From NCBI GenBank assembly GCA_035525285.1, contig DATLFB010000044.1:108441-172440 (forward strand): 64,000 nt of DNA, given 5' to 3'. Every line of letters begins with the position of its first letter. Positions within the stretch are counted from its first letter, which is position 1. Below, piece by piece: positions 591 to 31,212 of this stretch. The notes beneath the pieces were generated by a model. It made no database searches. It was not told the DNA's origin and worked only from the letters and a program-made list of their open reading frames with translations. Both the position numbers and the translations under genes were made by a program. This stretch comes from Thermoanaerobaculia bacterium (lineage in GTDB: Bacteria; Acidobacteriota; Thermoanaerobaculia; Gp7-AA8).

Positions 591-593
591 AGA

Positions 594-1847: not shown

Positions 1848-2710
1848 CGAGTTCTCGCATCCAGTATCGCATTGAGCGCCGCCGCGGCCAGCACCACGCG
1901 CGGGCCGGGACGCTGGAAGACGTCCTCGTCGACGGGGACGACTTCCGCGCGCAGCGACGGGACGCGCTGCATCAGCACCTTCATCTGCTGCGGCGTCACC
2001 GCGCCGCGCGGATAGAGAATGAGATCGGGCGGAGAGGCGGCGAGCGACTCGAGCGAGTACTGCGGCCAGCCCGTGACCTGCACCGCATTTTGTGCACCGG
2101 TGAGCCGCAGCAGATCGTCGGTGAACGTGTTGCGGCCGGCGACGTAGAGCGGATCGGTCCAGACGGCGAAGAGGATGCGCAGCGGGCGCTCGCGCTTGCG
2201 CGACTGGCGGAGGATGTCCTCGCGCAGACGGCGCGGCGCATCGTTTGTTCCGGAGGCGTGCAGCAACTCGCCGAGACGCCGCATGGCCGGCTCGATCTCA
2301 TGCAGGCGATCGGTGCGCACGACGTACAGAGGGATGCCCGCGGCCTCCAGCGCCTGCGCGAGATTCGGATGATTCCCTTCGGTCGATGCGATGATGAGAT
2401 CAGGCTTCAGCGCCGCGATCTTCTCGACGTTCGGCTGCATCCCGCCGACCTTCGGCAGCGCGCGCGCGGGGGGCGGGAAGTTGGAGAAATCGTCGGTCCC
2501 GGCGAGCTTGTCGCCCGCGCCGAGGGCGAAGACGATCTCGGTGAGATTGGGGGCGAGGGAAACGACGCGATGGATTTCATTCGGCAGCGTGACGGCGCGG
2601 CCGAGGTCGTCGTGTGTGGTGACCGCACGCTCAACGCAGGAGGCGAAGAGGACGCAAACGATGAACGATGAACGATGAACGATGAACGATGAGCGCGGGA
2701 CCCGATTCAT
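1844..2710 (-). CDS. periplasmic substrate-binding protein, TroA/BtuF/FecB-like (class III SBP)
   Basis: Contains HRVVSLAPNLTEIVFALGAGDKLAGTDDF, typical of cobalamin/siderophore-binding proteins. A possible lipobox (LFASC) follows the N-region. The N-terminal codons overlap a heptamer-repeat hairpin, so the start codon is uncertain. Confidence 0.8.
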   Translation of the reverse strand: MNRVPRSSFIVHRSSFIVCVLFASCVERAVTTHDDLGRAVTLPNEIHRVVSLAPNLTEIVFALGAGDKLAGTDDFSNFPPPARALPKVGGMQPNVEKIAALKPDLIIASTEGNHPNLAQALEAAGIPLYVVRTDRLHEIEPAMRRLGELLHASGTNDAPRRLREDILRQSRKRERPLRILFAVWTDPLYVAGRNTFTDDLLRLTGAQNAVQVTGWPQYSLESLAASPPDLILYPRGAVTPQQMKVLMQRVPSLRAEVVPVDEDVFQRPGPRVVLAAAALNAILDARTR

Positions 2711-2749
2711 CGTTCATCCTTCATCGTTCATCGTTCATCGTTCATCGTT
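2657..2749. repeat. mirror tandem-array hairpin: (AACGATG)x5, a 16-nt spacer, then (CATCGTT)x6
   Basis: The unit copies can be read directly in the sequence. The same unit family recurs at 22447-22540. Confidence 0.9.
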
Positions 2750-2818
2750 CGCCGCCAGCCACAAACAAAAACCGCGGCCCGAAGCCGCGGTCGTCCGAGA
2801 ACCGGCGAGCGAGGGTGT

Positions 2819-3049
2819 TTACCCTTCACCGCCCTCTTCGTCTTCGAGGTCGTTCGCCACGCCGAGGCGGTTGCAGGCGGCGGCATACATCTGCTTCGAG
2901 GCGTTGATGGCATTCTGAAGATCGGCGATGCGGTCCTTCACCTTCGCGAGCTCTTCCTCGATCTGATCCTTCAGATCGCTGACCTCCTGCCTGGTCACCG
3001 TGAGCGTGGTCTCGTAGAACTTTCGTTGCTGATCCGTCAGAACCGCCAT
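2819..3049 (-). CDS. small coiled-coil protein, 76 aa (ZapB-like in appearance only)
   Basis: A GGAGGGAG Shine-Dalgarno sits 5 nt upstream of the ATG. Coiled-coil heptads are visible (DLKDQIEEELAKVKDRIADLQNAI). It lies immediately downstream of the kinase gene. Confidence 0.5.
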   Translation of the reverse strand: MAVLTDQQRKFYETTLTVTRQEVSDLKDQIEEELAKVKDRIADLQNAINASKQMYAAACNRLGVANDLEDEEGGEG

Positions 3050-3074
3050 CTCGACTCCCTCCAGCGAATTTCTA

Positions 3075-5882
3075 TCATAGCTTGAAGTCCACGGGCACCG
3101 TGATCCACGACTTCACGCGCACGCCATCGACGGTTCCGGGCGTGAACGTGGAGCGGCGCATCGTCTGCTCCGCGGCCTCGTTGAGACCGACCGGGCGATT
3201 GACGCCGCGGATGATGCGCACTTCCATCACCTGGCCGCTCTCCGACACGAGGACGCTCGTCAGCACCGTCCCCTGGACGCGCTGCATGCGCGCGATCGGC
3301 GGATACGGCACGCTGCCGCGGCGCAGAACGCGCGGCGGAGTCAGACCGGCGGTGCCGGCGGCGACGAGCTCTCCTTCGCGAACCGCGGCGCGTGCGGGCG
3401 CCGCGGGCACGGGCGCGGGCTCCTGCTGAGCCGGCGCGGGCGCGGGCTCCTGTTGCACGGGCGCGGGTGCCGGACGCGTCGTCTCTGCCTGTTGCGGCGG
3501 CGGTTGCTGCTGCACGGGCGCCGGAGCGACCGGCTGCGGACGCACGGCAGCGGTCGTCGGCGTCTGCGTCGTTGCACTCGGTTGCTGCGCGCGCGCCTGT
3601 GCTTCGAGCCGCGCACGTTCGGCGGCGAGCCGCTTCTGCACTTCCTGATCGACGAGCGACGGATCGAGCGTCGCGGTTGCGGGCGACGTCGCCGTTGCAT
3701 CGGTCGTTGCCGGCGCAACGCCCGTTGCCGGGGCCGCGGGCGCCTGCGTTCCGGCCGACGCGGTGACCGCGGGTGCAGGCGTCGCGCTCTTGCCTTTCAT
3801 CAGCATCCACGCCACGCCGCCGAGGGCGAGGAGAACGACGGCGCCGATGACGATGATCGGCACCGCCGACGACTTCTTCCGCACCGGCTGTTCCCACGGT
3901 TCCGGCGCGGCGGACGCGGGCTCGACGCGCGCTGCGGCGGCCGGCGCAGCCGCGACGGGCACAGCCGCGATCGGTGCGGGTTTCGGCGCCGGCGCGGGCG
4001 CGGGAGTCGGAGCAACCGGCTCCGGCTCGGGCGCGGGGATCATCACCGGCTCGGTGCTCGACATGCGATGCATGTAGATCGCGAGATCGGCGCTGGTCGG
4101 CGTCGGCTTGAAGGTGTAGAGGATCTGATCGATGTCGCGCGCCATCTCGCCCGCGGTCTGATAACGCGACGCGGAATCTTTCTGCAGTGCCTTGAACACG
4201 ACCGCATCGATTTCCGGCGTGACTTCCTCGTTGAACTGCGAGGGCGGCGTGACGCGCGCCTCGCGCACCTGCTCGAGGATCGAGAGCTCGCTGTCGCCGG
4301 TGAAGAGCTTGCGATTCGTGAGCATCTCGAAGAGCACGGTCGCGAGCGCGAAGATGTCCGAGCGGCGATCGATCGAGCGGCCCCACGCCTGCTCCGGCGA
4401 CATGTACTGCAGCTTGCCCTTCAGCGCCCCGGCCTGCGTATGCGAGGCCTTCGACGCGGCCTTGGCGATGCCGAAGTCGCAGAGCTTGATGTCGCCTTCC
4501 TGCGAGATGAGCACGTTCTGCGGCGAGACGTCGCGATGCACGAGTCCCATCTCGCGCTCCTCGAAGTCCTTCTTGCGATGCGCGTAGTCGAGCGCGGAGG
4601 CGATCTTCGAGGCGATGAAGAGCGCCAGCTCGACGGCCATCGGATGATCGCGCTCTTCGCCGCGGCGCAGGATCGCCTTCAGATCGTACCCGTCGATGTA
4701 CTCCATCGCGATGTAGTACGAGTTCTGAATTTTTCCGAGGTCGTAGATGTGAATGATGTTGTTGTGATTGAGCTGCGCGGCGAGCTTCGCCTCGTCGACG
4801 AACATCTCGACGAAGTCCTGGTTGTCGGAGAGATGCGGAAGGATCTTCTTGATCGCGACGATCTTCTGGAATCCTTCCACGCCGCGCATGCGCGCCTTCC
4901 AGACTTCCGCCATTCCGCCGGTGGCGATCTTCTCGATCAGCACGTACTGGCCGAACTTGACGCCGTCCGTCGGCTCTTCTTCCTCGATGCGCGCGGCCTC
5001 CGGGGCGGCCTGCGGAAACACCGGCTGCGACACCGGCACGCGATCGGGAACGTAGGCCTGCATCCGCGCGGTGTTGAACTTCTTCTCCGGGACCGGCGCG
5101 GGTGGCGCGGCGGGAGGCGGCGCGGGTGCAGGTGCCGGCGGCGCGGGCACGGGCACATTGCCGCCGCTCGTCGTTTTGCGCGCGCTCTTCTCGAGACCGG
5201 AGAGCGTGTCGGAGAGCATCTTGTCGAGACCCGACGTCGATGTGCGCGGCGCTTTCGCCTGCTGCGCCGGCGGCGCGGCAGAGGGCGGCGGTACAGGCGC
5301 GGCCGGCTGCGCTTCCTTCCTCCGCTGCGGCATCAGGCCGGACAGCGTGTCCGCCACCATCTTGTCGACTTCGCTCGTCGATTTGCCCATCATCGTCTTT
5401 CTCGGCGCCGCCGGTTTCTCGTCTTCGAGGAGGTCGCCGAAGATCTCAGTGGAGGTCAGTCCGGGCTCGGCCGGACGAACCGTGAACTCGTCGTGCAGCG
5501 GCGCATCGGCGCGGATGCCGAGCATCTGCTGCACTTTGCCGAGGAACTCACTTTCGGAGTAGGGCTTCGGAAGGATGTCCGACGCGCCGACGCGCTGCGC
5601 GTCCGCCTTCGGACTCTTCCCGTTGTAGCCGGAGACGGTGAGAAGGATCGGCGTCTCCTGCAGCGGCTTGCGGCCGCGGATGTTGCGGATCAACTCCGTC
5701 GTGCTGACTTTGGGGACGACCGAGGAGAGGACGATGAGGCGCGGCGGCGAGCCGTCGAGAACGCGAATCGCCTCCTCTCCGTCCTTCGCGAACGTGGGGG
5801 TGAAGGGCTGGCCCGCCAGGGCCTGCCGCACGCGGTCGGTATAGCGAGGCTCGTACTCGACGACGAGAATGTTTTCAGACAT
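3075..5882 (-). CDS. multidomain membrane Ser/Thr protein kinase: N-terminal pseudo-receiver, Pro-rich linker with a repeated TSTSGLDKMLSDTLSGL motif, Hanks-type kinase, one TM helix, long Pro/Ala/Gln linker, and a C-terminal TonB_C domain
   Basis: Kinase motifs are present (ATGGMAEVWKA, HRDVSPQNVLIS, DFGIAKA). The receiver-like N-terminus lacks the phospho-acceptor Asp (LIVLSS). A hydrophobic helix (VPIIVIGAVVLLALGGVAWMLM) follows the kinase. The C-terminus (PYPPIARMQRVQGTVLTSVLVSESGQVMEVRIIRG...VPVDFKL) matches the TonB C-terminal fold. Confidence 0.85.
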   Translation of the reverse strand: MSENILVVEYEPRYTDRVRQALAGQPFTPTFAKDGEEAIRVLDGSPPRLIVLSSVVPKVSTTELIRNIRGRKPLQETPILLTVSGYNGKSPKADAQRVGASDILPKPYSESEFLGKVQQMLGIRADAPLHDEFTVRPAEPGLTSTEIFGDLLEDEKPAAPRKTMMGKSTSEVDKMVADTLSGLMPQRRKEAQPAAPVPPPSAAPPAQQAKAPRTSTSGLDKMLSDTLSGLEKSARKTTSGGNVPVPAPPAPAPAPPPAAPPAPVPEKKFNTARMQAYVPDRVPVSQPVFPQAAPEAARIEEEEPTDGVKFGQYVLIEKIATGGMAEVWKARMRGVEGFQKIVAIKKILPHLSDNQDFVEMFVDEAKLAAQLNHNNIIHIYDLGKIQNSYYIAMEYIDGYDLKAILRRGEERDHPMAVELALFIASKIASALDYAHRKKDFEEREMGLVHRDVSPQNVLISQEGDIKLCDFGIAKAASKASHTQAGALKGKLQYMSPEQAWGRSIDRRSDIFALATVLFEMLTNRKLFTGDSELSILEQVREARVTPPSQFNEEVTPEIDAVVFKALQKDSASRYQTAGEMARDIDQILYTFKPTPTSADLAIYMHRMSSTEPVMIPAPEPEPVAPTPAPAPAPKPAPIAAVPVAAAPAAAARVEPASAAPEPWEQPVRKKSSAVPIIVIGAVVLLALGGVAWMLMKGKSATPAPAVTASAGTQAPAAPATGVAPATTDATATSPATATLDPSLVDQEVQKRLAAERARLEAQARAQQPSATTQTPTTAAVRPQPVAPAPVQQQPPPQQAETTRPAPAPVQQEPAPAPAQQEPAPVPAAPARAAVREGELVAAGTAGLTPPRVLRRGSVPYPPIARMQRVQGTVLTSVLVSESGQVMEVRIIRGVNRPVGLNEAAEQTMRRSTFTPGTVDGVRVKSWITVPVDFKL

Positions 5883-5934: not shown

Positions 5935-6067
5935 GCGAGCCGAAGGTAAAAGGTAAAAGGAAAAAGGTAAAAGTGGCCAAGCCAGGATCCGCGCGTTTCG
6001 AGGCTCTGCCACTTTTGGCCTTTTACCTTTTACCCTTTGCCTTTTACCTTTTACCTTTTACCTTTTA
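5935..6067. repeat. mirror tandem-array hairpin with a GGTAAAA-type unit (about 4 copies), a 42-nt spacer, and TTTTACC-type units (about 7 copies)
   Basis: Read directly in the sequence (aaaggtaaaaggtaaaagg...ccttttaccttttaccctttgcc...). It lies in the rho 5' leader. Confidence 0.85.
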
Positions 6068-6231
6068 CCTCGCCCTCGCTTGCTTTTCCGAAAATCGTTT
6101 TGCATACTGTCGTCCGCACCTCGCGCGACGAACCATCCCGCTCGGCGTTGAGACCTGACTCTCCGCCACGACGTCGTCGGTTCCCAGAGACTCGAGAGGT
6201 GAAAGCTCAGTTGGCAGTTGATTGAGTTCAA

Positions 6232-7590
6232 ATGACACCAGAAGATCGCACTCCGCGTAAGCGGCGCCGGAGAAGACGCCGCGGGGGCGGCGCCGCAGCG
6301 CCGGGGCAATCACCCGCGTCCAACGGCAACGGCCCTTCACCAGGAAACGAAGCCGCTCCGCAGCAGTACGGCGGAGGCGGAGGAGGTCGGCGCCGCCGTC
6401 GCTCGCGCCGCGGCCGCAATCGCGGCGATGACCGTCCGCGGTCGCAGGAGAGCACCGCCTCTCTGCCGCCGCTCGACATCGAGCCGGGACAGCTCGTCCC
6501 CGCCAGCGGCGTGCTCTTCATCAAGCAGAACGGCGCCGGCATCCTCGTCGATCCGGCGAACAACTATCAAATGCAGCCGGGCGACGTGATCGTGCCGCGC
6601 TCGACGATCGAGAAGCTGCATCTGCAGGCGGGCCTGCTGATCGGCGGCACCGCGCGGCGCGCGGGCAACAACCTCGAGCTCGCCGGTCTCGAGACCGTCG
6701 AGGGCGTCGCGCTCGAGGAGTATCGGGAGTCGCGACGTCCCTTCTCCGAGCTCATCTCGATCGATCCGAACGAGATGTTCAAGCTCGAGACCGAGCCCGA
6801 GCGTCTGACCACGCGCGTGCTCGATCTGCTCTCGCCGATCGGCAGAGGGCAGCGATGCCTCGTCGTCGCGCCGCCGAAGGCGGGCAAGACGACCCTGCTG
6901 AAAGACATCGCCCACGGCGTGAACATGAATCACCCCGAGGTGATCCTGTTCGTGCTGCTGGTCGACGAGCGCCCCGAGGAAGTCACCGACTTCCGGCGCT
7001 CGGTCGAGCAGGGCGAGGTGGTCGCGTCGAGCTCGGACGAAACGGCGGACAGCCACATCCATCTCGCCGAGATCATCCTCGAGCGCGCACGCCGGCTCGT
7101 CGAGATCAAGAAAGACGTCGTGATTCTCTGCGACTCCATCACGCGCATGTCGCGCGCGTACAACAACGAGCAGCGAGGATCGGGAAAGATTCTCTCGGGC
7201 GGCATCGACGCGCGGACGATGGAGAAGCCGCGGCGCTTCTTCGGCGCGGCGCGCAATGCCGAGGACTGGGGATCGCTGACGATCGTCGCCACGGCGCTGG
7301 TCGACACCGGCTCGCGCATGGATGAAGTCATCTTCCAGGAGTTCAAGGGAACCGGAAACACGGAGATCATGCTCGACCGCGGATTGTTCGAGCGGCGCAT
7401 CTTCCCGGCCATGAACATCGCGCAGACCGGCACGCGCAAGGAGGAGAAGCTCCTTCCGCCCACCGTGCTGTCGAAGATTCACACGCTCCGCCGCGCGCTC
7501 GCCGGGACCGATCCGATGACGGCGATGAAGATGCTGCTCGAGCGGCTGCAGAAGTTCCCGTCGAACGAGGCGTTTTTGAAGAGCTTTTGA
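6232..7590 (+). CDS. rho: transcription termination factor Rho
   Basis: The RecA-like core is present (GQRCLVVAPPKAGKTTLLKDIAHG, VLLVDERPEEVTD) with the Q and R loops. The N-terminus carries an Arg/Gly-rich low-complexity segment before the OB fold. Confidence 0.9.
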   Translation: MTPEDRTPRKRRRRRRRGGGAAAPGQSPASNGNGPSPGNEAAPQQYGGGGGGRRRRRSRRGRNRGDDRPRSQESTASLPPLDIEPGQLVPASGVLFIKQNGAGILVDPANNYQMQPGDVIVPRSTIEKLHLQAGLLIGGTARRAGNNLELAGLETVEGVALEEYRESRRPFSELISIDPNEMFKLETEPERLTTRVLDLLSPIGRGQRCLVVAPPKAGKTTLLKDIAHGVNMNHPEVILFVLLVDERPEEVTDFRRSVEQGEVVASSSDETADSHIHLAEIILERARRLVEIKKDVVILCDSITRMSRAYNNEQRGSGKILSGGIDARTMEKPRRFFGAARNAEDWGSLTIVATALVDTGSRMDEVIFQEFKGTGNTEIMLDRGLFERRIFPAMNIAQTGTRKEEKLLPPTVLSKIHTLRRALAGTDPMTAMKMLLERLQKFPSNEAFLKSF

Positions 7591-7594: not shown

Positions 7595-7668
7595 CCGTGC
7601 TGCGTGCTACGTGCTGCGTGCTGAGGGGTTAACGCAGCACGTTGAACGCAGCACGCAGCACTCCAGAT
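7595..7668. repeat. mirror tandem-array hairpin with GTGCTGC units on one arm and GCAGCAC units on the other
   Basis: gtgctgcgtgctacgtgctgcgtgctgag ... acgcagcacgttgaacgcagcacgcagcac. It lies between the rho stop and the TonB-dependent receptor promoter. Confidence 0.85.
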
Positions 7669-10956: not shown

Positions 10957-10988
10957 GGCCGCCCGGCAACGGGCGGCCGTTTTTGTTT
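10957..10988 (+). terminator. rho-independent terminator after the TonB-dependent receptor gene
   Basis: A GC stem (ggccgcccg gcaa cgggcggcc) is followed by tttttgttt. Confidence 0.7.
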
Positions 10989-21545: not shown

Positions 21546-22448
21546 TCATTCCTCGAGAATTTTCCAGATTTTCCCCGCACTTCCGTGCTCCAGGACATTT
21601 CGTCGCAGCGCGTGATTCATGACGATGGAGTCGAGAAGAACGAGCTCATCATCGTCGGTCGGATCGGCGAGCGTGATTCCGAGCGTGCGCGCGACTTCTT
21701 CGACCGTCCGGTCGTGCATCGCGGCGATCGATTCGGAGACCGGTTTCGCGGGATTCACTTCATGCGCGATCGCGAGCGCGTTGCCCCGGAGGATGAACGT
21801 CGCGCAGCGCTGACCGGCGAGCCACTCGAGCGCCGCGGCGAGCGTGACGAGGTGCCAGTTGCGGTGCCGGCGATAGAGCTTCGCGATTCCTCGATTGCGC
21901 TCGCCGGCGGGCTTGTAGACGTTCGGCTGCACTTCCCAGATCAGCGCGACGCCGTGCGCGCTGTCGAACGTGCCCGACGTCTCGCCGACGGATCCGGGGA
22001 TCGTGTGCTGCTGCCCCTCGCTCTGTCCGATCGCGATCGCGTCCTCGAGCTCGCGCGCGACGACGTCGAAGGAGATGGTCTCCGCGCGCCCGCCGAAGTG
22101 CGCGTTGCGTCCGAGGACCAGGATGCCGCGATCCGCGTCGCGCAGAGGAATCGCGGCGCCCGATGCGCGTCCTTCCGCTTCGCGCGGATGCCACAGGCTC
22201 GCCGTCGGCTTTCCCGCGAGCCACAGAGGATGATTACGGCGCAGAAAGCGTTCGACCACACGCGCGCGAATCGTCAGCGTGTCTTCAGGCCGCAGCTCGG
22301 CGACGGATGCCGCGTCCTCGGCGATGTCGGAAAACACCTCGAGGACCTCGTCGCCCAGCCCGAGGTAGAGGTCGTAGAGCGCAGCCTTGGTCGCGGGTTG
22401 GACGCCGTGGGTGTTGAGGATGCGGTCGATGTGAGAGGGGAAAGGCAT
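21546..22448 (-). CDS. conserved hypothetical protein, 300 aa
   Basis: A long ORF in the same orientation between rimO and dusB. No motif recognised. Confidence 0.5.
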   Translation of the reverse strand: MPFPSHIDRILNTHGVQPATKAALYDLYLGLGDEVLEVFSDIAEDAASVAELRPEDTLTIRARVVERFLRRNHPLWLAGKPTASLWHPREAEGRASGAAIPLRDADRGILVLGRNAHFGGRAETISFDVVARELEDAIAIGQSEGQQHTIPGSVGETSGTFDSAHGVALIWEVQPNVYKPAGERNRGIAKLYRRHRNWHLVTLAAALEWLAGQRCATFILRGNALAIAHEVNPAKPVSESIAAMHDRTVEEVARTLGITLADPTDDDELVLLDSIVMNHALRRNVLEHGSAGKIWKILEE

Positions 22449-22540
22449 CAGCGATGAACGATGAACGATGAACGATGAACGATGAATTATGAACGATGAA
22501 TGACGTGCGATCGTTCATCGTTCATCGTTCATCGTCATGC
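22447..22540. repeat. mirror tandem-array hairpin of the GATGAAC/GTTCATC unit family (second copy of the 2657-2749 family)
   Basis: gatgaacgatgaacgatgaacgatgaac...cgttcatcgttcatcgttcatcgtcat. Confidence 0.9.
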
Positions 22541-23551
22541 CGCGATCCGTAGCCGCGCCTCGTCCAGCAACCGCTGCACATCCGAAACCGCGGCAATGTC
22601 CTGCAGCCCCATCCGGATGTCCTTCCCGTGCGGGATGCCTTTCGAGAACCACCCGATCACCGTGCGCGCCTTGTGGAGCTTCCACTTGTCGATCTGCGGG
22701 GCGGCGTCGATCTTCGCGAGATAGCGCTGCATCGCGTCGATGCGGCGGTCGATCTCGTTGTGGAGGACAGGCAATCCTGCCTGTCCGGACGGGCAGGATT
22801 GCCCGTCCTCCACATGCGCGTGAATATCTCGGAAGATGAACGGATTGTGCAGCGCGGCGCGGCCGATCATCACGCCGTCGACACCCGTGGTCTCGAACAT
22901 GCGCAGCGCATCCGCGGGCGACTTCACGTCGCCGTTGCCCCACACCGGAATCGTCAGCTCGCTCTTCACGCGGGCGATGTAGCTCCAGTCGCTCGCGCCG
23001 GTGTAGGCCTCGTTGCGCGTGCGGCCGTGAATCGCGATCGCGGCGACGCCGATCTCTTCGAAGCGCTTCAGCAGCGGGATGACGTCATCGCTCTCCCACC
23101 CCTTGCGCACTTTCACCGTGACCGGGATCTTCACCGCGGCCTTGATCTTCTCCACCACGCGCGCGGCTTTGTCGAAGTCCTTGAGCAGCGCCGATCCCGC
23201 GCCGCTGTTGACGATCTTGCGGACCGGGCAGCCCATGTTCACGTCGACGATGTCGACGCCCTCGGCCTCGACGATCGCGGCCGCGTCGTCCATCCGCTCC
23301 GGATCGCCGCCGTAGATCTGAATCGCGACCGGACGCTCGCTCTCGTTGAAGGCGAGCATCTGATGGCTGCGATCGTTCTTCCGCGTCAGCCCCTCGGCCG
23401 AGACGAACTCGGACACGACGAGTCCCACGCCGCCGAGCTCCTTGATCAGCGACCGGTAATACGTGTCGGTGACCTCGGCCATCGGGGCGAGCGCCAGCGG
23501 CGAGTCGATGTGGACGCCGCCGATCGAGAACGAACGCTTCAGATATTCCAT
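22535..23551 (-). CDS. dusB: tRNA-dihydrouridine synthase (DusB-like)
   Basis: Contains LAPMAEVTD, VAIQIYGGDP, and VDVNMGCP, matching the FMN-binding TIM barrel. Confidence 0.85.
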   Translation of the reverse strand: MEYLKRSFSIGGVHIDSPLALAPMAEVTDTYYRSLIKELGGVGLVVSEFVSAEGLTRKNDRSHQMLAFNESERPVAIQIYGGDPERMDDAAAIVEAEGVDIVDVNMGCPVRKIVNSGAGSALLKDFDKAARVVEKIKAAVKIPVTVKVRKGWESDDVIPLLKRFEEIGVAAIAIHGRTRNEAYTGASDWSYIARVKSELTIPVWGNGDVKSPADALRMFETTGVDGVMIGRAALHNPFIFRDIHAHVEDGQSCPSGQAGLPVLHNEIDRRIDAMQRYLAKIDAAPQIDKWKLHKARTVIGWFSKGIPHGKDIRMGLQDIAAVSDVQRLLDEARLRIAA

Positions 23552-24153: not shown

Positions 24154-25123
24154 TCCGCGCGCGCAGTCCCTTCTCCCCGCCACGCGGAGAGAAGGTGGCC
24201 CTGAGCGAAGCGAAGGGCCGGATGAGGCGCCCCTCACCCTGGCCCTCTCCCCGCACGCGGGGAGAGGGGACTGGGGGTCGCCACGAAGAACACCTTCGCC
24301 CGAGGATCGCGACGCGCTCGCCGCCGATCTTCGCCCCACCGTGGAACGCCGATTGGAAATCGGCGTTCCTCTCCGGCCGGCAGACGAAGAACATCTTCAC
24401 CCGATCCGATTCGACCCATTCCTGGTCGTGATACGGATCGAAGTCGATCACGTCCACCGGCGTCAGTTGCGCTTCGGCGAGCGAGGAGACGATCTCCCGC
24501 TCGCTGTACGCGCGCTGGCGATGCTGCTCGCGGATCGCGATGCGCTCGCCGCCGATCTTCGCCCATCCGGTCACCATCGCCTTCGCGATCTTCTCGCGCG
24601 CGCGGTACGACGTCGCCATCTCGAGGTGAAAGTCCGGACCGTCGGCGATGAACGGATCGGCGATGCCCCAGATCGCGGGGTAGATGTCGGGATGGTTCAT
24701 GTCGAAGAGCAGCAGCGAGTCGTGGTCCATCACGCCGCGCATCGCGCGGAATGCGGCCACGAGCTCGTTGCGGTCGAGCAGATGATTGAGGCTGTCGTAC
24801 AGACAGGTGATGCGCGCGAAGCGCCGACGCAGCGGCAGGGCGCGGAGATCCGCCGCGATCACCTGTGGCGCGCGCGTGCGCGCGAGCCGTAGCATCGGCA
24901 GCGACGCGTCGATGCCGACGGACATCCAGCCCCGCTCGCGAAACCAGCGCAGCGCGAGTCCCGTTCCGCACGCGACGTCGAGATGCGTGCGTTTCGCCGT
25001 CGGATATTTCGCGAGCACCTGCTCGAGCGTGGCGCGGACAGCCTTGAAGAAACGCTCGCCGAGGGACTGGTCGTACGCGTAGGCAAACGCGCCGTAGGCT
25101 TCACCAGCGGTAGAAGCCTTCAC
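24128..25123 (-). CDS. class I SAM-dependent methyltransferase
   Basis: Contains LDVACGTGLALRWF (motif I) and LLLFDMNHP. The ORF-track start at 25465 is a spurious extension across hbd. The GTG at 25123 overlaps the hbd stop by 23 nt, so the true start and the true C-terminal end are both uncertain (an internal direct repeat and hairpins complicate the end). Confidence 0.55.
   Translation of the reverse strand: MKASTAGEAYGAFAYAYDQSLGERFFKAVRATLEQVLAKYPTAKRTHLDVACGTGLALRWFRERGWMSVGIDASLPMLRLARTRAPQVIAADLRALPLRRRFARITCLYDSLNHLLDRNELVAAFRAMRGVMDHDSLLLFDMNHPDIYPAIWGIADPFIADGPDFHLEMATSYRAREKIAKAMVTGWAKIGGERIAIREQHRQRAYSEREIVSSLAEAQLTPVDVIDFDPYHDQEWVESDRVKMFFVCRPERNADFQSAFHGGAKIGGERVAILGRRCSSWRPPVPSPRVRGEGQGEGRLIRPFASLRATFSPRGGEKGLRARTTAPARPS
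24172..24290. repeat. two tandem GC-rich hairpins (CTCTCCCCGC-ACGCGG-GGAGAG type)
   Basis: cccttctccccgccacgcggagagaagg and ccctctccccgcacgcggggagagggg. They lie in the convergent 3' region of the CHI-like and methyltransferase genes. Confidence 0.7.
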
Positions 25124-25946
25124 CCGTCTTCTTTCCGAGTTTCCCCTGCGCGACGAGATCGCGCAGGAGATGCGGCGGCTCGAAACGCGGTCCGAGAGTG
25201 GAGGCGAGGTATTCGGCGATGCTGAGACGGACGTCGAGGCCGACCAGATCGCTGAGGCGCAGCGGTCCCATCGGATGGTTGTAGCCGAGAACCATCGCGC
25301 GATCGATGTCTTCGGCGGACGCGACACCTTCCTCGAGCATGCGCATCGCCTCGAGACCGATGGCGATGCCGAGGCGCGAGGTCGCGAAGCCGGGGCTGTC
25401 GCGCACGACGATCGGCGTCTTTCCCATCCTTTCGGCGACGTTGCGCACCGTATCGACCGTCGCATCGGCCGTCCGCTCGCCGCGCACGATCTCGACGAGT
25501 TGCATCACGTGCGGCGGATTGAAGAAATGCATACCGAGGAAGCGATCGCGGCGCTCGACGGTGCCGGCGAGCTTCGAGATCGAGAGTGAGGACGTGTTCG
25601 TGGCGAGGATCGTCTCCGGTCCGCAGAAGAGATCCGCCTGCGCGAAGAGATCCTTCTTCAGGTCGAAGCTCTCCGGCACCGCCTCGATGATCAGATCCGC
25701 GCTGTTGACGGCCGGCTCGAGGTCGGGCACGAGCTGCAGGCGCGCCATCGCCTCGCTCGCCGCCGTCTCGGTGATCTTCTCTTTCTCCACGCCCTTTCGG
25801 AGAGTCGAGTCGATCGCGGCCTTCGCCGCGTCGAGCGCGCCCGCGTCGATGTCGAAGACGACCGTGTCGAAGCCGGCGAGCGCGGAGAGGTACGCGATGC
25901 CGCGGCCCATCGTTCCGGAGCCGAGGATGGAGATCTGGCGGATCAT
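25101..25946 (-). CDS. hbd: 3-hydroxyacyl-CoA / 3-hydroxybutyryl-CoA dehydrogenase
   Basis: A Rossmann motif (ISILGSGTMGRGIA) and a C-terminal 3HCDH domain are present. Start placed at MIRQISILG. The upstream 40 codons in the ORF track cross a repeat element. Confidence 0.85.
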   Translation of the reverse strand: MIRQISILGSGTMGRGIAYLSALAGFDTVVFDIDAGALDAAKAAIDSTLRKGVEKEKITETAASEAMARLQLVPDLEPAVNSADLIIEAVPESFDLKKDLFAQADLFCGPETILATNTSSLSISKLAGTVERRDRFLGMHFFNPPHVMQLVEIVRGERTADATVDTVRNVAERMGKTPIVVRDSPGFATSRLGIAIGLEAMRMLEEGVASAEDIDRAMVLGYNHPMGPLRLSDLVGLDVRLSIAEYLASTLGPRFEPPHLLRDLVAQGKLGKKTGEGFYRW

Positions 25947-25965
25947 GAAGGGGGAGTCTATCTCG

Positions 25966-26074
25966 GTTGCCCGGCTGCCCGGTTTCCCGGCGACGCCGTC
26001 CGGGTGGCGGCGCCAGACGTTGCTGAGGCGCCGGCTCCCGCGCGGCGCCGCCGGGAAGCCGGGCAACCGGGAAG
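25966..26074. repeat. octamer mirror-array element (CCGGTTGC-type units on one arm, GCAACCGG-type on the other)
   Basis: ggttgcccggctgcccggtttcccgg ... ccgggaagccgggcaaccgggaagcc. The same family occurs at 27730-27810, 31121-31212, and as a single arm at 59378-59411. Confidence 0.85.
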
Positions 26075-26077
26075 CCT

Positions 26078-27729: not shown

Positions 27730-27810
27730 GGGTTGCCCGGTAACCCGGTTGCCCGGTTTCCCAGTGTGTTTTTCTCCGGGCAACCGGGCGACTGGGCAAC
27801 CGGGCAACCA
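27730..27810. repeat. octamer mirror-array element (CCGGTTGC/GCAACCGG family)
   Basis: gggttgcccggtaacccggttgcccggtttcccagtgtg...ccgggcaaccgggcgactgggcaaccgggcaacc. Confidence 0.85.
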
Positions 27811-27814
27811 CACC

Positions 27815-30226: not shown

Positions 30227-30227
30227 G

Positions 30228-30322
30228 AGGTTCGAGGTTCGAGGTTCGAGGTTCGAGGTCAGAATGAAGAGGCAGTCTCTCTCTTCATTCGTCCTTCGAA
30301 CCTCGCACCTCGAACCTCGGCT
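30228..30322. repeat. mirror tandem-array hairpin: (GAGGTTC)x5, a spacer, then GAACCTC units
   Basis: gaggttcgaggttcgaggttcgaggttcgaggtc...ccttcgaacctcgcacctcgaacctcgg. Confidence 0.9.
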
Positions 30323-30328
30323 TCTAGC

Positions 30329-31045
30329 TTACGCTCCTGCTCTTCGCGCCGCTTCGACCGCGTACGGCGAGTCGGGGAACTCGGTCGTGATGCGGCGATA
30401 CGCTTCGCGCGACTTCGCCGCATTGCCCTGCACGTCGTACGCGTGTGCGAGCAGGATCAGCAGCGTGTCGCCCGGCAGCACCGGCTCGCTCTTGCCGATC
30501 TCCGCGTTCAGCTCCGCGGCCACCTGCGCGGCTTCGCCGCTGTCGATGCGCAGCTGATAGAGGCTGTAGCGCGCCGAGCCGGCGAGCACGTGATCGCCGT
30601 GATCGTCGATGAACTCCGTGAGCATCTTCTTCGCGGCGGCGAGGTCGCCCTTCGACGCGGCGATGCGCGCGAGATAGAGGCTCCCGACGTCGGCGGCGTC
30701 GGTGCCGCCGTGCTTCGCCGCGATGTCCTTGAACATCCGCTCGGAGGCCGCGGTGCGCTCCTGCTCGGTCTTGAACTTCGGGCCGGGCTGCGGCTGCTGG
30801 TTCGGCTGCTGCGCCGTCTCGACCGTTGCGTCGGCGGTCTCAATCGCCGCGGCCAGCGCCTGCTGCGCCTTCTCCTCGCGCGAGGAGCGGTAGAAGTAGA
30901 TGCCGTAGACGATCACCGCGACGGCGAGGATGCCGCCCGCGATGCTGTAGAGGAGGCGCTGGTTCTGCTGCGCCCGGGCCGAAAGCGCGCCGATCTCATC
31001 GACGAACTTGTCGTGCTTGAGGTCATGCCGGTGTTGACGATCCAT
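30329..31045 (-). CDS. membrane-anchored tetratricopeptide-repeat protein (YfgM-like)
   Basis: One TM helix (LLYSIAGGILAVAVIVYGIYFY) is followed by TPR-like helices. Start placed at MDRQ. Confidence 0.6.
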   Translation of the reverse strand: MDRQHRHDLKHDKFVDEIGALSARAQQNQRLLYSIAGGILAVAVIVYGIYFYRSSREEKAQQALAAAIETADATVETAQQPNQQPQPGPKFKTEQERTAASERMFKDIAAKHGGTDAADVGSLYLARIAASKGDLAAAKKMLTEFIDDHGDHVLAGSARYSLYQLRIDSGEAAQVAAELNAEIGKSEPVLPGDTLLILLAHAYDVQGNAAKSREAYRRITTEFPDSPYAVEAARRAGA

Positions 31046-31120
31046 GGGAGAGAAAAGCCTCCGTGCGAAGAGCGGGAACTCTGGTTCGTCCGCGCGCAAC
31101 CGTCAACGTCTCAGGAGGAT

Positions 31121-31212
31121 TCCCGGTTGCCCGGTTGCCCGGTTGCCCGGTTGCCCGGTAGCCCGGTAAGCGGCACACTGGGAAACCGGGCGACTGGGCA
31201 ACCGGGCAACTC
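31121..31212. repeat. octamer mirror-array element (CCGGTTGC/GCAACCGG family), in the opposite orientation to the copy at 27730
   Basis: cccggttgcccggttgcccggttgcccggttgcccggtagcccggtaagcggcacactgggaaaccgggcgactgggcaaccgggcaac. The core cacactggg here is the reverse complement of cccagtgtg at 27760. Confidence 0.85.

What the first reader, a model, noticed from the sequence alone, without database searches (positions are those of the whole stretch)
2657..31212. Five or more families of 'mirror tandem-array' hairpins share one architecture but use different 7-8 nt units
I see the same design at 2657-2749 and 22447-22540 (AACGATG), 5935-6067 (GGTAAAA), 7595-7668 (GTGCTGC), 30228-30322 (GAGGTTC), and at 25966, 27730 and 31121 (CCGGTTGC). 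Each has 4-6 tandem copies of a short unit, a spacer of 10-40 nt, then 4-6 copies of the reverse-complement unit. Each would fold into a stem of 30-45 bp. Most sit where genes end, so they may act as bidirectional terminators. One shared architecture with unrelated unit sequences suggests a common generating mechanism, possibly a mobile or templated element, rather than independent evolution. I do not know this as a described repeat class.
Basis: seen in the sequence. Interest (0 to 1): 0.7.

Follow-up and report, generated by a model that had tools for sequence, protein, structure and literature searches.

The report
Mirror-image heptamer-repeat hairpins between genes
The window really carries nine long DNA hairpins whose two arms are mirror-image runs of a 7- or 8-base unit; they belong to a repeat family found across one group of uncultured soil Acidobacteria, appear to be copied between gene junctions and reshaped over time, and are not ordinary transcription terminators.

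Summary
Each folds at -46 to -93 kcal/mol.

They are not assembly artefacts. I found 107 distinct examples in 2 Mb from about 130 related genomes, including multi-megabase contigs and complete chromosomes. Density is 6-9 per 100 kb inside the clade and 0-1 outside it.

- **Anatomy:** the period is 7 (about 75%) or 8. The 5' arm is G-rich in 90 of 102.
- **Position:** they sit in tight gene junctions, a median 4.5 nt after a stop codon. They also lie between divergent promoters and across start codons.
- **Terminator reading not supported:** there is no U-tract (3/106), no enrichment between convergent genes and no sense-strand wobble bias.
- **Evolution:** orthologous junctions keep a hairpin while the unit changes. 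In one 92%-identical pair both arms differ in period, 7 versus 8.
- **Paralogy:** hairpins at different junctions of one genome share units, arm variants and even loops, sometimes inverted.

My best reading is a REPIN-like family of palindromic repeat elements, remodelled by slippage. The mobilising mechanism is unknown. The closest precedent is the inverted GGGAATC heptamer arrays of Xanthomonas.

The parts
1523..1607 (.). Mirror array GCGGTTGC x5 / 8 nt / ACCGCGAA x4.6. It straddles the ATG (1565) of the FecCD permease gene 594-1565(-), and one arm encodes residues 2-14.
   Evidence: fold -53.5 kcal/mol, z -4.25
2657..2750 (.). Mirror array AACGATG x5.1 / 13 nt / TTCATCG x6.4. It straddles the ATG (2710) of the periplasmic binding lipoprotein gene 1844-2710(-). 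The 3' arm encodes SSFIVHRSSFIV of the signal peptide. A canonical terminator (2792-2770, minus strand) lies just upstream.
   Evidence: fold -69.1, z -10.4
5943..6070 (.). Mirror array AAGGTAA x4.4 / 45 nt (itself partly palindromic) / CCTTTTA x7.4. It lies between the divergent kinase gene (start 5882) and the rho-like gene (start 6232), about 10 nt upstream of the rho-like -35 box.
   Evidence: fold -56.2, z -6.5
7596..7661 (.). Mirror array CGTGCTG x4 / 8 nt / ACGCAGC x4.3, 5 nt after the rho-like stop codon (7590) and 153 nt before the TonB-dependent receptor gene.
   Evidence: fold -45.9, z -4.9
22452..22535 (.). Mirror array CGATGAA x7 / 9 nt / ATCGTTC x3.7. It fills the junction from the Dus stop codon (22535-22537, whose TGA is the first TGA of the array) to 3 nt before the ATG at 22448.
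   Evidence: fold -46.9, z -8.1
25964..26076 (.). Degenerate mirror array of the CGGTTGCC type. The arms continue into a non-repeat inner palindrome (50-nt arms, 82% complementary). It lies 1 nt after the stop of the ankyrin gene (26078) and 18 nt before the ATG (25946) of 3-hydroxyacyl-CoA dehydrogenase.
   Evidence: fold -93.2, z -7.5
27731..27809 (.). Mirror array GGTTGCCC x4 / 13 nt / CCGGGCAA x4.2, 5 nt after a stop (27815) and 43 nt before the ATG at 27687. It is a paralogue of 31122-31210.
   Evidence: fold -61.3, z -6.2
30227..30319 (.). Mirror array GAGGTTC x4.7 / 36 nt (inner palindrome) / TCGAACC x3.4, 9 nt after a stop (30329) and abutting the ATG at 30226.
   Evidence: fold -60.1, z -8.7
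31122..31210 (.). Mirror array CCCGGTTG x5.8 / 12 nt / GGGCAACC x3.9, between divergent predicted starts at 31099 and 31213. With 27731-27809 it shares a 27-nt arm-variant string and a 10-nt loop string in inverted orientation.
   Evidence: fold -77.3, z -8.7
59378..59411 (-). Lone GGTTGCCC x4.2 array of the same unit family, without a mirror arm, in frame inside ORF 58591-60927(-), where it encodes GQPGNRATGQP.

Best explanation
These are members of a clade-specific population of palindromic repeat elements, 65-190 bp long. Each arm is 3-10 tandem copies of a 7-nt (less often 8-nt) unit, and the 5' arm is G-rich on either strand.

**Shown**
- The hairpins occur throughout one Thermoanaerobaculia clade and are almost absent from its outgroups.
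- They sit in very short gene junctions (stop to hairpin to SD/start), between divergent promoters, or across start codons.
- Orthologous junctions keep a hairpin across species while its unit changes.
- Hairpins at different junctions of the same genome are paralogues that share units, arm variants and loops, in either orientation.
- Occupied and empty states of one junction are scattered across related genomes.

**Inferred**
- Whole hairpins are copied to new junctions, or over resident hairpins, by a DNA-level process. This would resemble REPIN/MITE spread but depend on structure rather than sequence. Candidates are an unidentified trans-acting enzyme or replication template-switching.
- Resident copies are then remodelled by slipped-strand gain and loss of units. 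Arm-to-arm templated correction (quasipalindrome template switching) would keep the two arms complementary, so each genome drifts to its own unit families.
- The hairpins are tolerated where they are because a self-closing stem leaves the stop codon and the next SD/start adjacent at its foot.
- A G-rich arm is always transcribed first in either orientation, so no C-rich unstructured RNA is exposed to Rho.
- On mRNA they would act as very stable intercistronic or 5' stem-loops, with REP-like effects on 3'-end protection, RNase III processing or translation starts. They would not act as intrinsic terminators.
For: **Real and clade-wide**
- 107 distinct mirror arrays in 2.03 Mb. 66% of all period-7 arrays with at least 3.5 copies are mirrored.
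- Density is 6.3-8.7 per 100 kb in the clade and 0-1 per 100 kb in outgroups of similar G+C.
- They are present on 5-6.6 Mb contigs and chromosomes. Copies are identical in independent assemblies of the same species.

**Position**
- Median 4.5 nt after the upstream stop. Closer to the stop than to the next start in 29 cases against 9, p=0.0017. Both distances are 15 nt or less in 16 of 38.
- Empty orthologous junctions are only 1-25 nt long.

**Persistence with unit turnover**
- The junction upstream of the rho-like gene is occupied in at least 18 genomes with at least 14 different units.
- The Dus-stop junction is occupied in at least 12 lineages with about 10 units.
- Orthologous pairs share the unit in 5/5 cases at 99% or higher flank identity, 4/6 at 85-90%, 2/14 at 80-85% and 2/22 at 70-80%.
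- L101 has period 7 (GTTGTCG) and L103 period 8 (GGTTGTCR) at the same site, in both arms. These genomes are 92% identical.

**Paralogy within genomes**
- The same unit recurs in 16/86 pairs within a locus, against 3.8% between loci.
- Shared loops: L093 792 vs 6086, 15/15 in inverted orientation; L024, 22/25; L095, 10/10; window 27731 vs 31122, 10/10 inverted. Each has p about 0.003-0.007. The window pair also shares a 27-nt arm-variant string.

**Gain and loss**
- The L101 hairpin is replaced by 12 nt in L103.
- At the kinase-stop junction, 4 occupied genomes are scattered among 32 empty ones in a tree built from the flanks.

**DNA level rather than RNA selection**
- Sense and antisense folds are equally stable, 26 vs 35, p=0.28.
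- The hairpin at the rho-like site lies upstream of both promoters.

**Polarity**
- The 5' arm has G>C in 90/102, p=6e-16.
Against: - No hallmark of a known transposition mechanism was found. There is no target-site duplication beyond chance (1.47 vs 1.39), and no conserved flanking tag (at most 0.23 bits per position).
- A motif regex found no HUH/Y1 transposase ORF in the 2 Mb sampled. This is a weak test, because such genes are usually single-copy and whole genomes were not available.
- Loop similarity was significant in only 4 of 12 same-family intragenomic pairs.
- One junction (3HCDH stop) looks locally seeded. Its 'empty' relatives carry two tandem copies of the same ARGGATG heptamer across the ATGA stop/start overlap. 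This argues for in-situ birth there, or for remnants left after deletion.
- Only about 10% of unit variants are mirrored in the opposite arm. I counted 34 compensated pairs against about 12 by my own rough estimate, so arm-to-arm correction is not fast.
- The flank tree is short and poorly resolved.
- The data set is anchored on two loci, so site counts are not independent.
- No expression data exist. All RNA-level consequences, the Rho argument and the coupling argument are inference.
Confidence: 0.5

Rival explanations
1. Purely in-situ origin. Each hairpin is born at its own junction by slippage of a local heptamer followed by a fold-back (template-switch) inverted duplication. It is then kept by slippage and arm-to-arm correction, and nothing moves between loci. 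Recurrence of a unit would reflect common seeds such as the ATGA stop/start overlap.
For: - At the 3HCDH-stop junction, 'empty' genomes carry AAGGATGAAGGATGA or GACGATGAAGGGTGA where others carry AACGATG or AGGGATG arrays. The first units encode the last codons and the stop. Unit-to-empty-site similarity ranks 0-2 of about 50 controls for these sites.
- AACGATG arrays occur at three different junctions that all contain GATGA.
- The L054 unit TGAGTCC matches the junction TGAGTCATG in L125.
- There is no target-site duplication and no flank tag.
Against: - Across 22 sites with empty orthologues, units resemble the empty junction no better than control units do (0.728 vs 0.713, p=0.68).
- Loops, which are not part of any seed, are shared between hairpins at different junctions of one genome, twice in inverted orientation.
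- At about 80% flank identity, units follow the genome more than the site: 18.6% within a locus against 9-14% for orthologous pairs.
- The two-unit 'seeds' could equally be remnants left by deletion.
Confidence: 0.25
2. Selected RNA elements. The hairpins exist because they work as factor-independent (I-shaped, possibly bidirectional) terminators or as 3'-end stabilisers, and their position is conserved by selection.
For: - They sit tightly next to stop codons (median 4.5 nt; 29:9 nearer the stop than the start).
- Position persists across species while the sequence turns over.
- In L007 a REP-like palindrome occupies the site where L008 has a mirror array, which hints that the two are interchangeable.
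- The stems are very stable.
Against: - Only 3 of 106 have a T-tract, although the organism has canonical terminators.
- Convergent regions are occupied least: 11/292, against 64/939 codirectional and 30/279 divergent.
- The hairpin at the rho-like site lies upstream of both promoters, so neither mRNA should contain it.
- Hairpins are missing from the same junction in many relatives.
- There is no excess of G-U tolerance on the sense strand.
- Many lie 0-15 nt from the next start codon, or across it, with no room for a promoter.
Confidence: 0.12
3. Protein-binding arrays. A DNA- or RNA-binding protein with a 7-nt footprint binds the repeats, and each genome's unit co-evolves with its protein. 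A cold-shock/OB-fold type protein, as discussed for TAACTGA repeats, would be one example.
For: - The period is strict, 7 or 8.
- Unit families are genome-specific.
- Some unit words are enriched: GTTG, GGTTG, GCAGA.
- CspB binding one heptamer per protein is cited in PMC4679880.
Against: - One genome carries several unrelated units; the window has at least 5.
- Units change between 92%-identical genomes.
- Binding does not explain the obligatory mirror arm.
- No candidate protein was identified.
Confidence: 0.08
4. Assembly artefact of short-read metagenome assembly.
For: The source is a MAG contig. Palindromes and tandem repeats can be mis-assembled.
Against: - Identical hairpins appear in four or more independent assemblies of one species, and in JGI as well as ENA and NCBI records.
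- They are present in multi-megabase contigs and complete chromosomes.
- They are imperfect, with site-specific variants inherited between 90%-identical genomes.
- One arm is translated into a conserved signal-peptide motif in many homologues.
Confidence: 0.01

Closest known systems
Inverted pairs of tandem GGGAATC heptamers in Xanthomonas campestris and X. axonopodis (Rehm et al. 2015, PMC4692102)
   Same: - Tandem heptamers, mostly about 4 units.
- 70-75 cases per genome in which two arrays lie close together in convergent orientation on opposite strands, able to form stem-loops. I read 'convergent' as the G-rich strand coming first, which is an inference.
- About 90% are intergenic, and they lie close to the end of the 5' neighbouring ORF (28 nt on average).
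[quoted passage not shown]
- Function is unknown.
   Different: - Xanthomonas has one genome-wide, G-quadruplex-capable unit (GGGNATC). Here there are 71 distinct units, few with G-runs, and several per genome.
- Here about two thirds of the arrays are mirrored, against about 40% there.
- In Xanthomonas divergent regions are under-represented. Here they are not.
- The paralogy of whole hairpins, and arms inside coding starts, were not described there.
REPINs: REP doublets forming hairpins, mobilised by RAYT transposases (Bertels & Rainey 2011, PMC3116915)
   Same: - Extragenic hairpins of about 70-110 nt made of two inverted repeats plus a less conserved spacer.
- Genome-specific families.
- Insertion next to or into resident copies.
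- Long persistence, and non-autonomous spread inferred from sequence populations.
   Different: - The arms here are tandem 7-8-mers, not a 20-25 nt imperfect REP palindrome.
- There is no GTAG/CGTC-type tag.
- No RAYT was found (a weak test).
- The window does contain a separate, more REP-like palindrome family.
Heptamer simple-sequence repeats: cyanobacterial STRR, TAACTGA direct repeats of Beggiatoaceae, and the general excess of heptanucleotide SSRs in prokaryotes (PMC4679880; Mrazek 2007 as cited there)
   Same: - The period is 7.
- They are intergenic, often directly next to start codons.
- Polymerase slippage with a footprint of about 7 nt has been proposed as the cause.
   Different: Those are direct arrays. 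Only one inverted case is reported among 170 TAACTGA sets, and there is one unit per lineage. Here the mirror arm is the rule.
Intrinsic (including bidirectional) terminators
   Same: A G+C-containing stem-loop close to a stop codon.
   Different: - The stems are 24-40+ bp instead of about 5-14.
- There is no U-tract.
- They are not enriched between convergent genes.
- Some lie upstream of promoters or across start codons.
Quasipalindrome template-switch mutagenesis and slipped-strand mispairing (established mutational mechanisms; from my own knowledge of work by Ripley and by Lovett, not retrieved here)
   Same: These would produce exactly the two kinds of change seen here: gain and loss of units, and concerted change of both arms.
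   Different: They are mechanisms, not an element class. They do not explain copies at new junctions that share loops.

Membership tests
Intrinsic terminator | A run of U/T immediately 3' of the stem | tested here: not met
   At least 5 T in the first 8 nt after the stem in 3/106, and at least 5 A before the stem in 4/106. None of the window hairpins is picked up by the terminator scan, which does find 2792-2770(-) and 10968-10981(+).
Intrinsic terminator | Short G+C-rich stem (about 5-14 bp) with a 3-8 nt loop | tested here: not met
   Mean 34 Watson-Crick pairs and median 24 nt between arms. Window stems have 24-40 pairs.
Intrinsic terminator | Located at the ends of transcription units and enriched between convergent genes | tested here: not met
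   Occupancy is 11/292 convergent, 64/939 codirectional and 30/279 divergent intergenic regions. The divergent count is inflated by the anchored rho-like site. The hairpin at that site lies upstream of both promoters.
REPIN / REP | Two inverted repeats plus a spacer forming one long hairpin, extragenic | tested here: met
REPIN / REP | Each arm is a REP: a 20-40 nt imperfect palindrome of fixed sequence, present in high copy number | tested here: not met
   The arms are tandem 7-8-mers with no internal palindrome, and there are 71 distinct units.
REPIN / REP | Conserved terminal tetranucleotide (GTAG or CGTC) | tested here: not met
   No flank or stem-foot position exceeds 0.23 bits. The definition comes from PMC3733652.
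REPIN / REP | Cognate RAYT (Y1 HUH transposase) gene in the genome, flanked by the repeats | tested here: inconclusive
   A regex for HUH plus Y..NP motifs found no ORF in 2.03 Mb. No whole genome was available, and the regex is not an HMM.
REPIN / REP | Within-genome families of paralogous copies | tested here: met
   Same unit in 16/86 within-locus pairs against 3.8% between loci. Shared loops in 4 of 12 pairs. Shared arm variants.
Xanthomonas-type inverted heptamer SSR arrays | Tandem heptamer arrays occurring as close convergent pairs on opposite strands | tested here: met
   82 of 112 pairs have period 7. The 5' arm is G-rich in 90/102. The description comes from PMC4692102.
Xanthomonas-type inverted heptamer SSR arrays | Intergenic, and closer to the 5' neighbouring ORF than to the next ORF | tested here: met
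   Median 4.5 nt from the stop; 29:9 nearer the stop than the start.
Xanthomonas-type inverted heptamer SSR arrays | One dominant G-quadruplex-capable unit (GGGNATC / GGGGAYT) | tested here: not met
   71 canonical units, the commonest (AACGATG) seen only 6 times. Units are 38% G with few G-runs.
MITE | Target-site duplication flanking terminal inverted repeats | tested here: not met
   The longest flank direct repeat averages 1.47, against 1.39 +/- 0.13 for permuted partners.
MITE | Derived from an autonomous IS with the same ends | not tested
   No IS with matching ends was looked for beyond the loci held. Whole genomes were not available.
Integron attC site | Follows promoterless mobile cassettes next to an integron integrase | tested here: not met
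   The flanking genes are syntenic housekeeping genes conserved across the clade (rho-like, Dus, 3HCDH, FecCD/PBP).
Contingency-locus SSR (phase variation) | Copy number varies between near-identical strains | tested here: not met
   All 5 orthologous pairs at 99% or higher flank identity are identical in unit. The copies inspected are identical in sequence. The sample is small.
CRISPR array | Direct repeats separated by unique spacers of similar length | tested here: not met
   The units are contiguous 7-8-mers without spacers, and the second block is the reverse complement.

The most novel reading that the evidence does not exclude
A mobile-element class defined by structure, not sequence. 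These would be palindromes with tandem-heptamer arms, copied by an as yet unknown structure-specific mechanism into stop-to-start junctions. Two properties would make them nearly invisible to the host. The closed stem keeps the stop codon and the next start adjacent. The G-first polarity hides them from Rho in either orientation. They would therefore persist for long periods while their sequence drifts genome by genome, and would occasionally be co-opted, as in the SSFIVHRSSF lipoprotein signal peptide.
Probability: 0.2. Interest if true: 0.8.

Novelty: new variant of a known kind. Interest (0 to 1): 0.6.

Why it matters
- **A dynamic repeat population in an uncultured lineage.** Extrapolating the measured density gives a few hundred elements per genome in a widespread soil lineage with no genetics. 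Anatomy alone allowed strong statements about how they evolve.
- **A link between two literatures.** The unexplained excess of heptamer repeats in bacteria has been treated apart from REPIN-type hairpin elements, and these hairpins belong to both.
- **A natural experiment.** The same gene junction carries a hairpin with a different sequence, or none, in dozens of genomes. That is a useful setting for studying concerted evolution of palindromes, tolerance of very stable stem-loops between translationally coupled genes, and Rho avoidance.
- **Annotation.** The hairpins overlap real start codons and encode parts of signal peptides. They will confuse gene callers and terminator predictors.

Tried and rejected
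- **Exact-protein look-up** of the rho-like protein: not on record. The source genome appears only once, so no strain-level comparison of the window itself was possible.
- **Pfam call with a wrong frame** for 25101-25945. The correct start is the ATG at 25946.
- **Rfam**, whole window at gathering thresholds: no family.
- **Viral contigs**, for GGTTGCCC x3 and for the AACGATG mirror pattern: 0 hits.
- **RNA-level selection test** (G-U tolerance on the sense strand): no bias, 26 vs 35.
- **U-tract test:** negative.
- **Local-seed test** of units against empty orthologous junctions: negative overall, p=0.68, and positive only at the 3HCDH-stop site.
- **Target-site duplication and terminal-tag tests:** negative.
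- **HUH/Y1 transposase motif regex** on 2 Mb: nothing.
- **Mirrored-variant count:** only a modest excess, 34 pairs against about 12 by my rough estimate.
- **Sigma-54 reading** of the conserved TGGCAC next to the left arm at the rho-like site: rejected because no -12 TTGC element follows (reading).
- **Integron attC** was considered because of the position after stop codons and the GTT/AAC words. I rejected it because the genes are syntenic housekeeping genes, and because by my own reading the GTT/AAC words lie in the opposite arm order to attC cores.
- **The idea that units generally carry a stop codon:** rejected on inspection. Many units lack T or A.

Full report

Yes. Reading the listed sites shows, at each one, a run of a 7- or 8-nt unit, a short unrelated stretch, then a run of the reverse-complement unit. 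Tandem Repeats Finder reports both arms at every site, and the inverted-repeat scan reports arms of 26-50 nt at 82-100% complementarity.

Pairing TRF arrays with a reverse-complement partner within 130 nt gives nine mirror arrays in the window:
- 2657-2750 (AACGATG)
- 5943-6070 (AAGGTAA)
- 7596-7661 (CGTGCTG)
- 22452-22535 (CGATGAA)
- 25964-26076 (degenerate CGGTTGCC)
- 27731-27809 (GGTTGCCC)
- 30227-30319 (GAGGTTC)
- 31122-31210 (CCCGGTTG)

One hundred dinucleotide-preserving shuffles give none. All nine fold into a single long hairpin, -45.9 to -93.2 kcal/mol, z -4.3 to -10.4, with no shuffle as stable. A tenth array (59378-59411, GGTTGCCC x4) has no mirror arm and lies in frame inside a gene.

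**2. Source, and the artefact question**

The periplasmic binding protein encoded at 1844-2710(-) is 100% identical to a protein of a 'MAG TPA: Thermoanaerobaculia bacterium' on a 180,677-bp contig.

I fetched 80 loci around homologues of the rho-like gene from species-representative genomes. I fetched another 80 around homologues of the 3-hydroxyacyl-CoA dehydrogenase from metagenome contigs, plus five syntenic contigs. Together with the window this is 2.03 Mb.

The same detector finds 112 mirror arrays, 107 of them distinct. Three lines of evidence rule out assembly artefacts:
- Arrays occur on contigs of 1.5-6.6 Mb, including records labelled 'chromosome: 1'.
- They are base-for-base identical in independent assemblies of the same species: L002-L005, L099/L101 and L029/L130.
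- One arm is translated into a conserved peptide in many homologues.

Density is 6.3-8.7 per 100 kb where the marker protein is at least 68-71% identical to the window's. It is 0-1 per 100 kb in more distant Acidobacteriota of similar G+C. The window has 14 per 100 kb, all in its first half.

**3. Anatomy**

- **Period:** 7 in 82 pairs, 8 in 24, 9 in 3, 6 in 2 and 10 in 1.
- **Mirroring:** among all arrays with at least 3.5 copies, period 7 dominates (188) ahead of period 8 (55). About two thirds of each are mirrored.
- **Size:** median copy number is 4.4 and 4.3 per arm, the median gap is 24 nt (range 0-130), and the median total length is 93 nt. Folds average 34 Watson-Crick pairs and -57 kcal/mol.
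- **Inner core:** several hairpins have a non-repeat palindrome inside the arrays. Examples are 25965-26014/26027-26076, 30233-30271/30281-30319 and 5955-6030.
- **Polarity:** the left arm has G>C in 90 of 102 informative cases (p=6e-16). Because the element is a palindrome, the 5' arm is G-rich on either strand. The same skew extends about 10 nt into the flanks.
- **Units are not random:**
 - GTTG occurs in 31 units against 8.3 expected, and GGTTG in 16 against 2.4.
 - The 62 distinct heptamers form a one-mismatch network with 114 edges. Composition-matched shuffles give 32 on average and 48 at most.

**4. Where they sit, and the terminator idea**

I called genes by GC3, Pfam and translation. 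The nine window copies fall into three groups.

Five abut a stop codon:
- 7596: 5 nt after the rho-like stop.
- 22452: the Dus TGA is the first TGA of the array.
- 25964: 1 nt after a stop.
- 27731: 5 nt after a stop.
- 30227: 9 nt after a stop.

Four of these also end 0-43 nt before the next start codon. The exception is 7596, at 153 nt.

Two straddle a start codon:
- 1523-1607: ATG at 1565 of the FecCD permease.
- 2657-2750: ATG at 2710 of the binding lipoprotein. A canonical terminator, 2792-2770(-), lies just upstream of this copy.

Two lie between divergent genes (5943-6070 and 31122-31210).

Clade-wide, 64 are between codirectional genes, 30 between divergent genes, 11 between convergent genes and 4 inside genes. 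The baseline is 939, 279 and 292 intergenic regions. The divergent count is inflated because the rho-like site is sampled in every locus of the first set.

In codirectional junctions the hairpin starts a median 4.5 nt after the stop. It is nearer the stop than the next start in 29 of 38 unambiguous cases (p=0.0017). It fills the junction, with both distances 15 nt or less, in 16 of 38.

Five results argue against a terminator role:
- Only 3 of 106 have a T-tract after the stem.
- Convergent regions are the least occupied class.
- Sense-strand RNA is no more stable than antisense (26 vs 35, p=0.28). There is thus no sign of G-U tolerance on the transcribed strand.
- At the rho-like site the right arm ends a few nucleotides before a clade-conserved promoter (TTGCtT/TTGCaT, 17 nt, cATACT/gATACT) that is followed by a conserved leader. 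The kinase gene starts on the other side, so the hairpin is upstream of both promoters.
- The same junctions lack a hairpin in many relatives.

Rfam has no family for any of them.

**5. Evolution at orthologous junctions**

Four junctions could be followed across many genomes.

- **Kinase / rho-like divergent region:**
 - TRF-detectable mirror arrays occur in at least 18 genomes with at least 14 units. These include AAGGTAA, GAACGCA, CGGTAGT, GAATGCA, GGTTGGC, GTTGCTG, GTCGGCG, GTCGCTGG, GGTGTCC, GAAGGCA, AATTCAG, GTGTGAA, GGTTATC, GGTTGCTG, AAGAGTG and GCTGGTT.
 - Folding shows degenerate versions in others, and none in L013, L015, L018, L022 and L072.
- **Dus stop to next gene:**
 - In 'empty' genomes the stop and the next start are 1-14 nt apart.
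 - In at least 12 lineages a hairpin fills exactly that gap. Units include CGATGAA, GAGTGCT/GAGTCCT, AGTCGCAG, GTGAAGA, GGACTGA, GTTCTTA/GTTGTTA, AAAGAGA, GCGCAGAT, AATTGAA and CAGAGAT.
- **3HCDH stop to next gene:**
 - The junction is occupied with AACGATG, AGGGATG, GGTTAAC or AGGCTCAA.
 - It is empty in about 20 genomes, including the window.
- **Kinase stop to the 76-aa gene:**
 - Four genomes are occupied, with related units GTTGTCA, GGTTKTY, GTTGGCA and CGTTGTC. The hairpin is inserted between the stop and the SD. Thirty-two genomes are empty.
 - In a neighbour-joining tree of 900 nt of flanks, the four are scattered among the empty ones. That tree is short and weakly resolved.

Orthologous occupied pairs share the unit (same period, at most 1 mismatch) at these rates:

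| Flank identity | Pairs sharing the unit |
|---|---|
| 99% or higher | 5/5 |
| 85-90% | 4/6 |
| 80-85% | 2/14 |
| 70-80% | 2/22 |

Three close comparisons are especially informative:
- L101 and L103 (92% identical) have GTTGTCG (period 7) and GGTTGTCR (period 8) at the same site, with the extra base in every unit of both arms.
- L101 has a 93-nt hairpin where L103 has 12 unrelated nucleotides between two divergent start codons.
- L008 has a GCGGATG hairpin after the rho-like gene where L007 (90% identical) has a palindrome of a different, REP-like family.

Copies are identical between strains at 99.5-100% identity, so these are not hypermutable contingency repeats.

**6. Paralogy within genomes**

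Hairpins at different junctions of the same locus share the unit in 16 of 86 pairs (18.6%). For hairpins from different loci the figure is 3.8%. It is 9-14% for orthologous junctions at 70-85% flank identity. At that divergence units follow the genome at least as much as the site.

Examples of units recurring within one locus:
- L093: three of three hairpins are built from CTGAGTG/CTGAGTC.
- L095: two of two from AGTCGCAG/AGTCTCAG.
- L069: two pairs.
- L016, L024 and L012: one pair each.
- The window: AACGATG twice and xxGGTTGC five times.

The loops, which are not repeats, are shared in four of twelve such pairs:
- L093 792 vs 6086: 15/15 in inverted orientation.
- L024 5626 vs 9739: 22/25.
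- L095: 10/10.
- Window 27731 vs 31122: 10/10 in inverted orientation.

Each has p about 0.003-0.007 against shuffled loops. The window pair also shares a 27-nt string of arm variants, AACCGGGCGACTGGGCAACCGGGCAAC.

Whole hairpins have therefore been copied between junctions. The alternative is that sequence has been exchanged between resident hairpins.

I found no mechanistic signature:
- No target-site duplication (1.47 vs 1.39 +/- 0.13).
- No conserved terminal tag (at most 0.23 bits).
- No HUH/Y1-motif ORF in the 2 Mb held (a crude regex on fragments).
- No copies on viral contigs.

**7. Are units seeded from local sequence?**

At the 3HCDH-stop junction, 'empty' genomes carry AAGGATGAAGGATGA (L122) or GACGATGAAGGGTGA (L093) across the ATGA stop/start overlap. 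Occupied genomes carry AACGATG or AGGGATG arrays whose first units encode the last codons and the stop. For these hairpins, similarity to the empty junction ranks 0-2 of about 50 control units.

This pattern fits birth by slippage of a local heptamer. It fits equally well a two-unit remnant left by deletion.

Over all 22 hairpins with empty orthologues there is no such similarity (0.728 vs 0.713, p=0.68). Local seeding is therefore not the general rule.

Arm-to-arm correction is supported by the period-7-versus-8 case. Otherwise the support is modest: 34 mirrored compensated variants among 707 deviating positions, against about 12 by my own rough estimate. Copy numbers of the two arms correlate weakly (rho 0.25, p=0.01).

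**8. Coding overlap**

The binding lipoprotein starts inside the hairpin at 2657-2750. Its N-terminus, MNRVPRSSFIVHRSSFIVCVLFASC, contains SSFIVHR, which is the translation of three CATCGTT units.

The same motif appears in homologues that are only 67-73% identical: RSSFIVHRSSF, FILHPSSFIL, SSLIVHRSSF, RSSFILHRSS, RSSFIVHPSSF and SSFLFHPSS. Others lack it.

This hairpin is old. It spans the start codon, and one arm has become part of a signal peptide. The GC3 caller also found 24 codirectional cases where the downstream ORF can run into the hairpin.

**9. Most likely mechanism**

My best reading, at confidence about 0.5, is a clade-specific family of palindromic repeat elements.
- They are copied at the DNA level between gene junctions, much like REPINs or MITEs. 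The signal is structural, not a fixed sequence.
- Resident copies are remodelled by slipped-strand gain and loss of units and by occasional arm-to-arm templated correction. Each genome thus drifts to its own unit families while junction occupancy is inherited.

The tolerance arguments and the RNA-level consequences are inference:
- A self-closing stem inserted between a stop and the next SD/start leaves the two adjacent at its foot.
- G-first polarity in either orientation never exposes a C-rich, unstructured RNA to Rho.
- On mRNA the hairpins would be very stable intercistronic or 5' stem-loops.
- Between divergent promoters they could extrude as cruciforms under negative supercoiling.

The rivals are:
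- purely in-situ birth at each junction (0.25);
- selected terminators or stabilisers (0.12);
- arrays of binding sites for a protein with a 7-nt footprint (0.08);
- assembly artefact (about 0.01).

**10. Comparison with what is known**

- **Xanthomonas GGGAATC arrays** are the closest precedent. There are 183-186 arrays per genome, 70-75 cases of convergent inverted pairs able to form stem-loops, about 90% intergenic, on average 28 nt from the 5' neighbouring ORF. They lie between the same genes in two species but differ in length and sequence, and their function is unknown (PMC4692102). Those share one G-quadruplex-capable unit and avoid divergent regions. The present ones have many units and do not.
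- **REPINs** share the hairpin-of-two-inverted-repeats design, genome-specific families and non-autonomous spread (PMC3116915). Their arms are REP palindromes with a GTAG-type tag and a cognate RAYT (PMC3733652). Those features were either not met or not testable here.
- **Heptamer direct repeats** (TAACTGA, STRR) and the general excess of heptanucleotide repeats share the period. They also share the proposed polymerase-slippage origin (PMC4679880).
- I found no paper on such hairpins in Thermoanaerobaculia.

**11. Verdict**

- This is a new variant of a known but barely studied kind.
- Interest is 0.6. The comparative pattern is unusually clean and raises testable questions. These concern palindrome maintenance, the period of 7, Rho avoidance and translational coupling. 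Function and the mobilising mechanism remain unknown.

Noticed in passing
window 472-591, 56470-56790, 58515-58590; L007 4283-4343: A second, unrelated palindrome family. These are compound palindromes built from 18-20-nt mini-hairpins with 7-8 bp GC stems and loops such as GCCA, TTCCA, GGATG and TGAAA; one example is GCGGCGACGCCAGTCGCCGC. They are often bracketed by TGTGGAG...CTCCACA and lie mostly at 3' ends or between convergent genes. In L007 one occupies the junction where the 90%-identical L008 has a mirror array.
   Followed up: partly
window 22759-22814, inside Dus 22535-23551(-): A palindrome of that REP-like family lies in frame inside the dihydrouridine synthase gene. The window protein has a 10-residue insertion, within HVEDGQSCPSGQAGLPVLHN, that is absent from about 35 orthologues. 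Intragenic REPs are reported in PMC3733652.
   Followed up: partly
window ~6085-6231 and the same region in L006-L072: A clade-conserved promoter-like motif (TTGCtT/TTGCaT, 17 nt, cATACT) is followed by a conserved leader of about 130 nt (GCACCTCGCGCGACGATC...GGGCGTTGAGA...CTCTCCGCC...GTCGTCGG) upstream of the rho-like gene. It may be an autoregulatory leader. There is no Rfam match.
   Followed up: no
window 59378-59411: A lone GGTTGCCC x4.2 array of the same unit as three of the hairpins. It lies in frame inside ORF 58591-60927(-) and encodes GQPGNRATGQP.
   Followed up: partly
window 60853-60927: A 23-24-nt direct repeat (GGGGTCACTTCTCCACCTCCACC) x3, TRF score 119-125, at the junction of two minus-strand ORFs.
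   Followed up: no
window 3075-5882(-): An unusual domain combination in one 935-aa protein: response-regulator receiver, then Ser/Thr protein kinase, then a C-terminal TonB_C domain. The gene is conserved next to the rho-like gene across the clade.
   Followed up: no
window 6232-7590(+): The 'rho-like' protein matches the ATP-synthase alpha/beta nucleotide-binding domain. Its match to the Rho RNA-binding domain only just clears the threshold (28.5 bits against a cut-off of 27), so it may not be a canonical Rho.
   Followed up: no
window 1565-1844 versus L002-L005 10846-11560: Relatives carry a DUF3291 gene between the binding-protein and FecCD genes. The window has only about 280 nt there, including the hairpin 1523-1607.
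   Followed up: no
L007 2308-2728; L008 9684-9822: Nested or duplicated composite upstream of the rho-like gene. An outer GGCAGAA/TTCTGCC hairpin encloses one (L008) or two (L007) copies of an inner GAACGCA/TGCGTTC hairpin. The two units differ by one base.
   Followed up: partly
window 32000-64000: All nine mirror arrays lie in the first 32 kb. The second half of the window has none, apart from the lone intragenic array. The reason was not examined.
   Followed up: no
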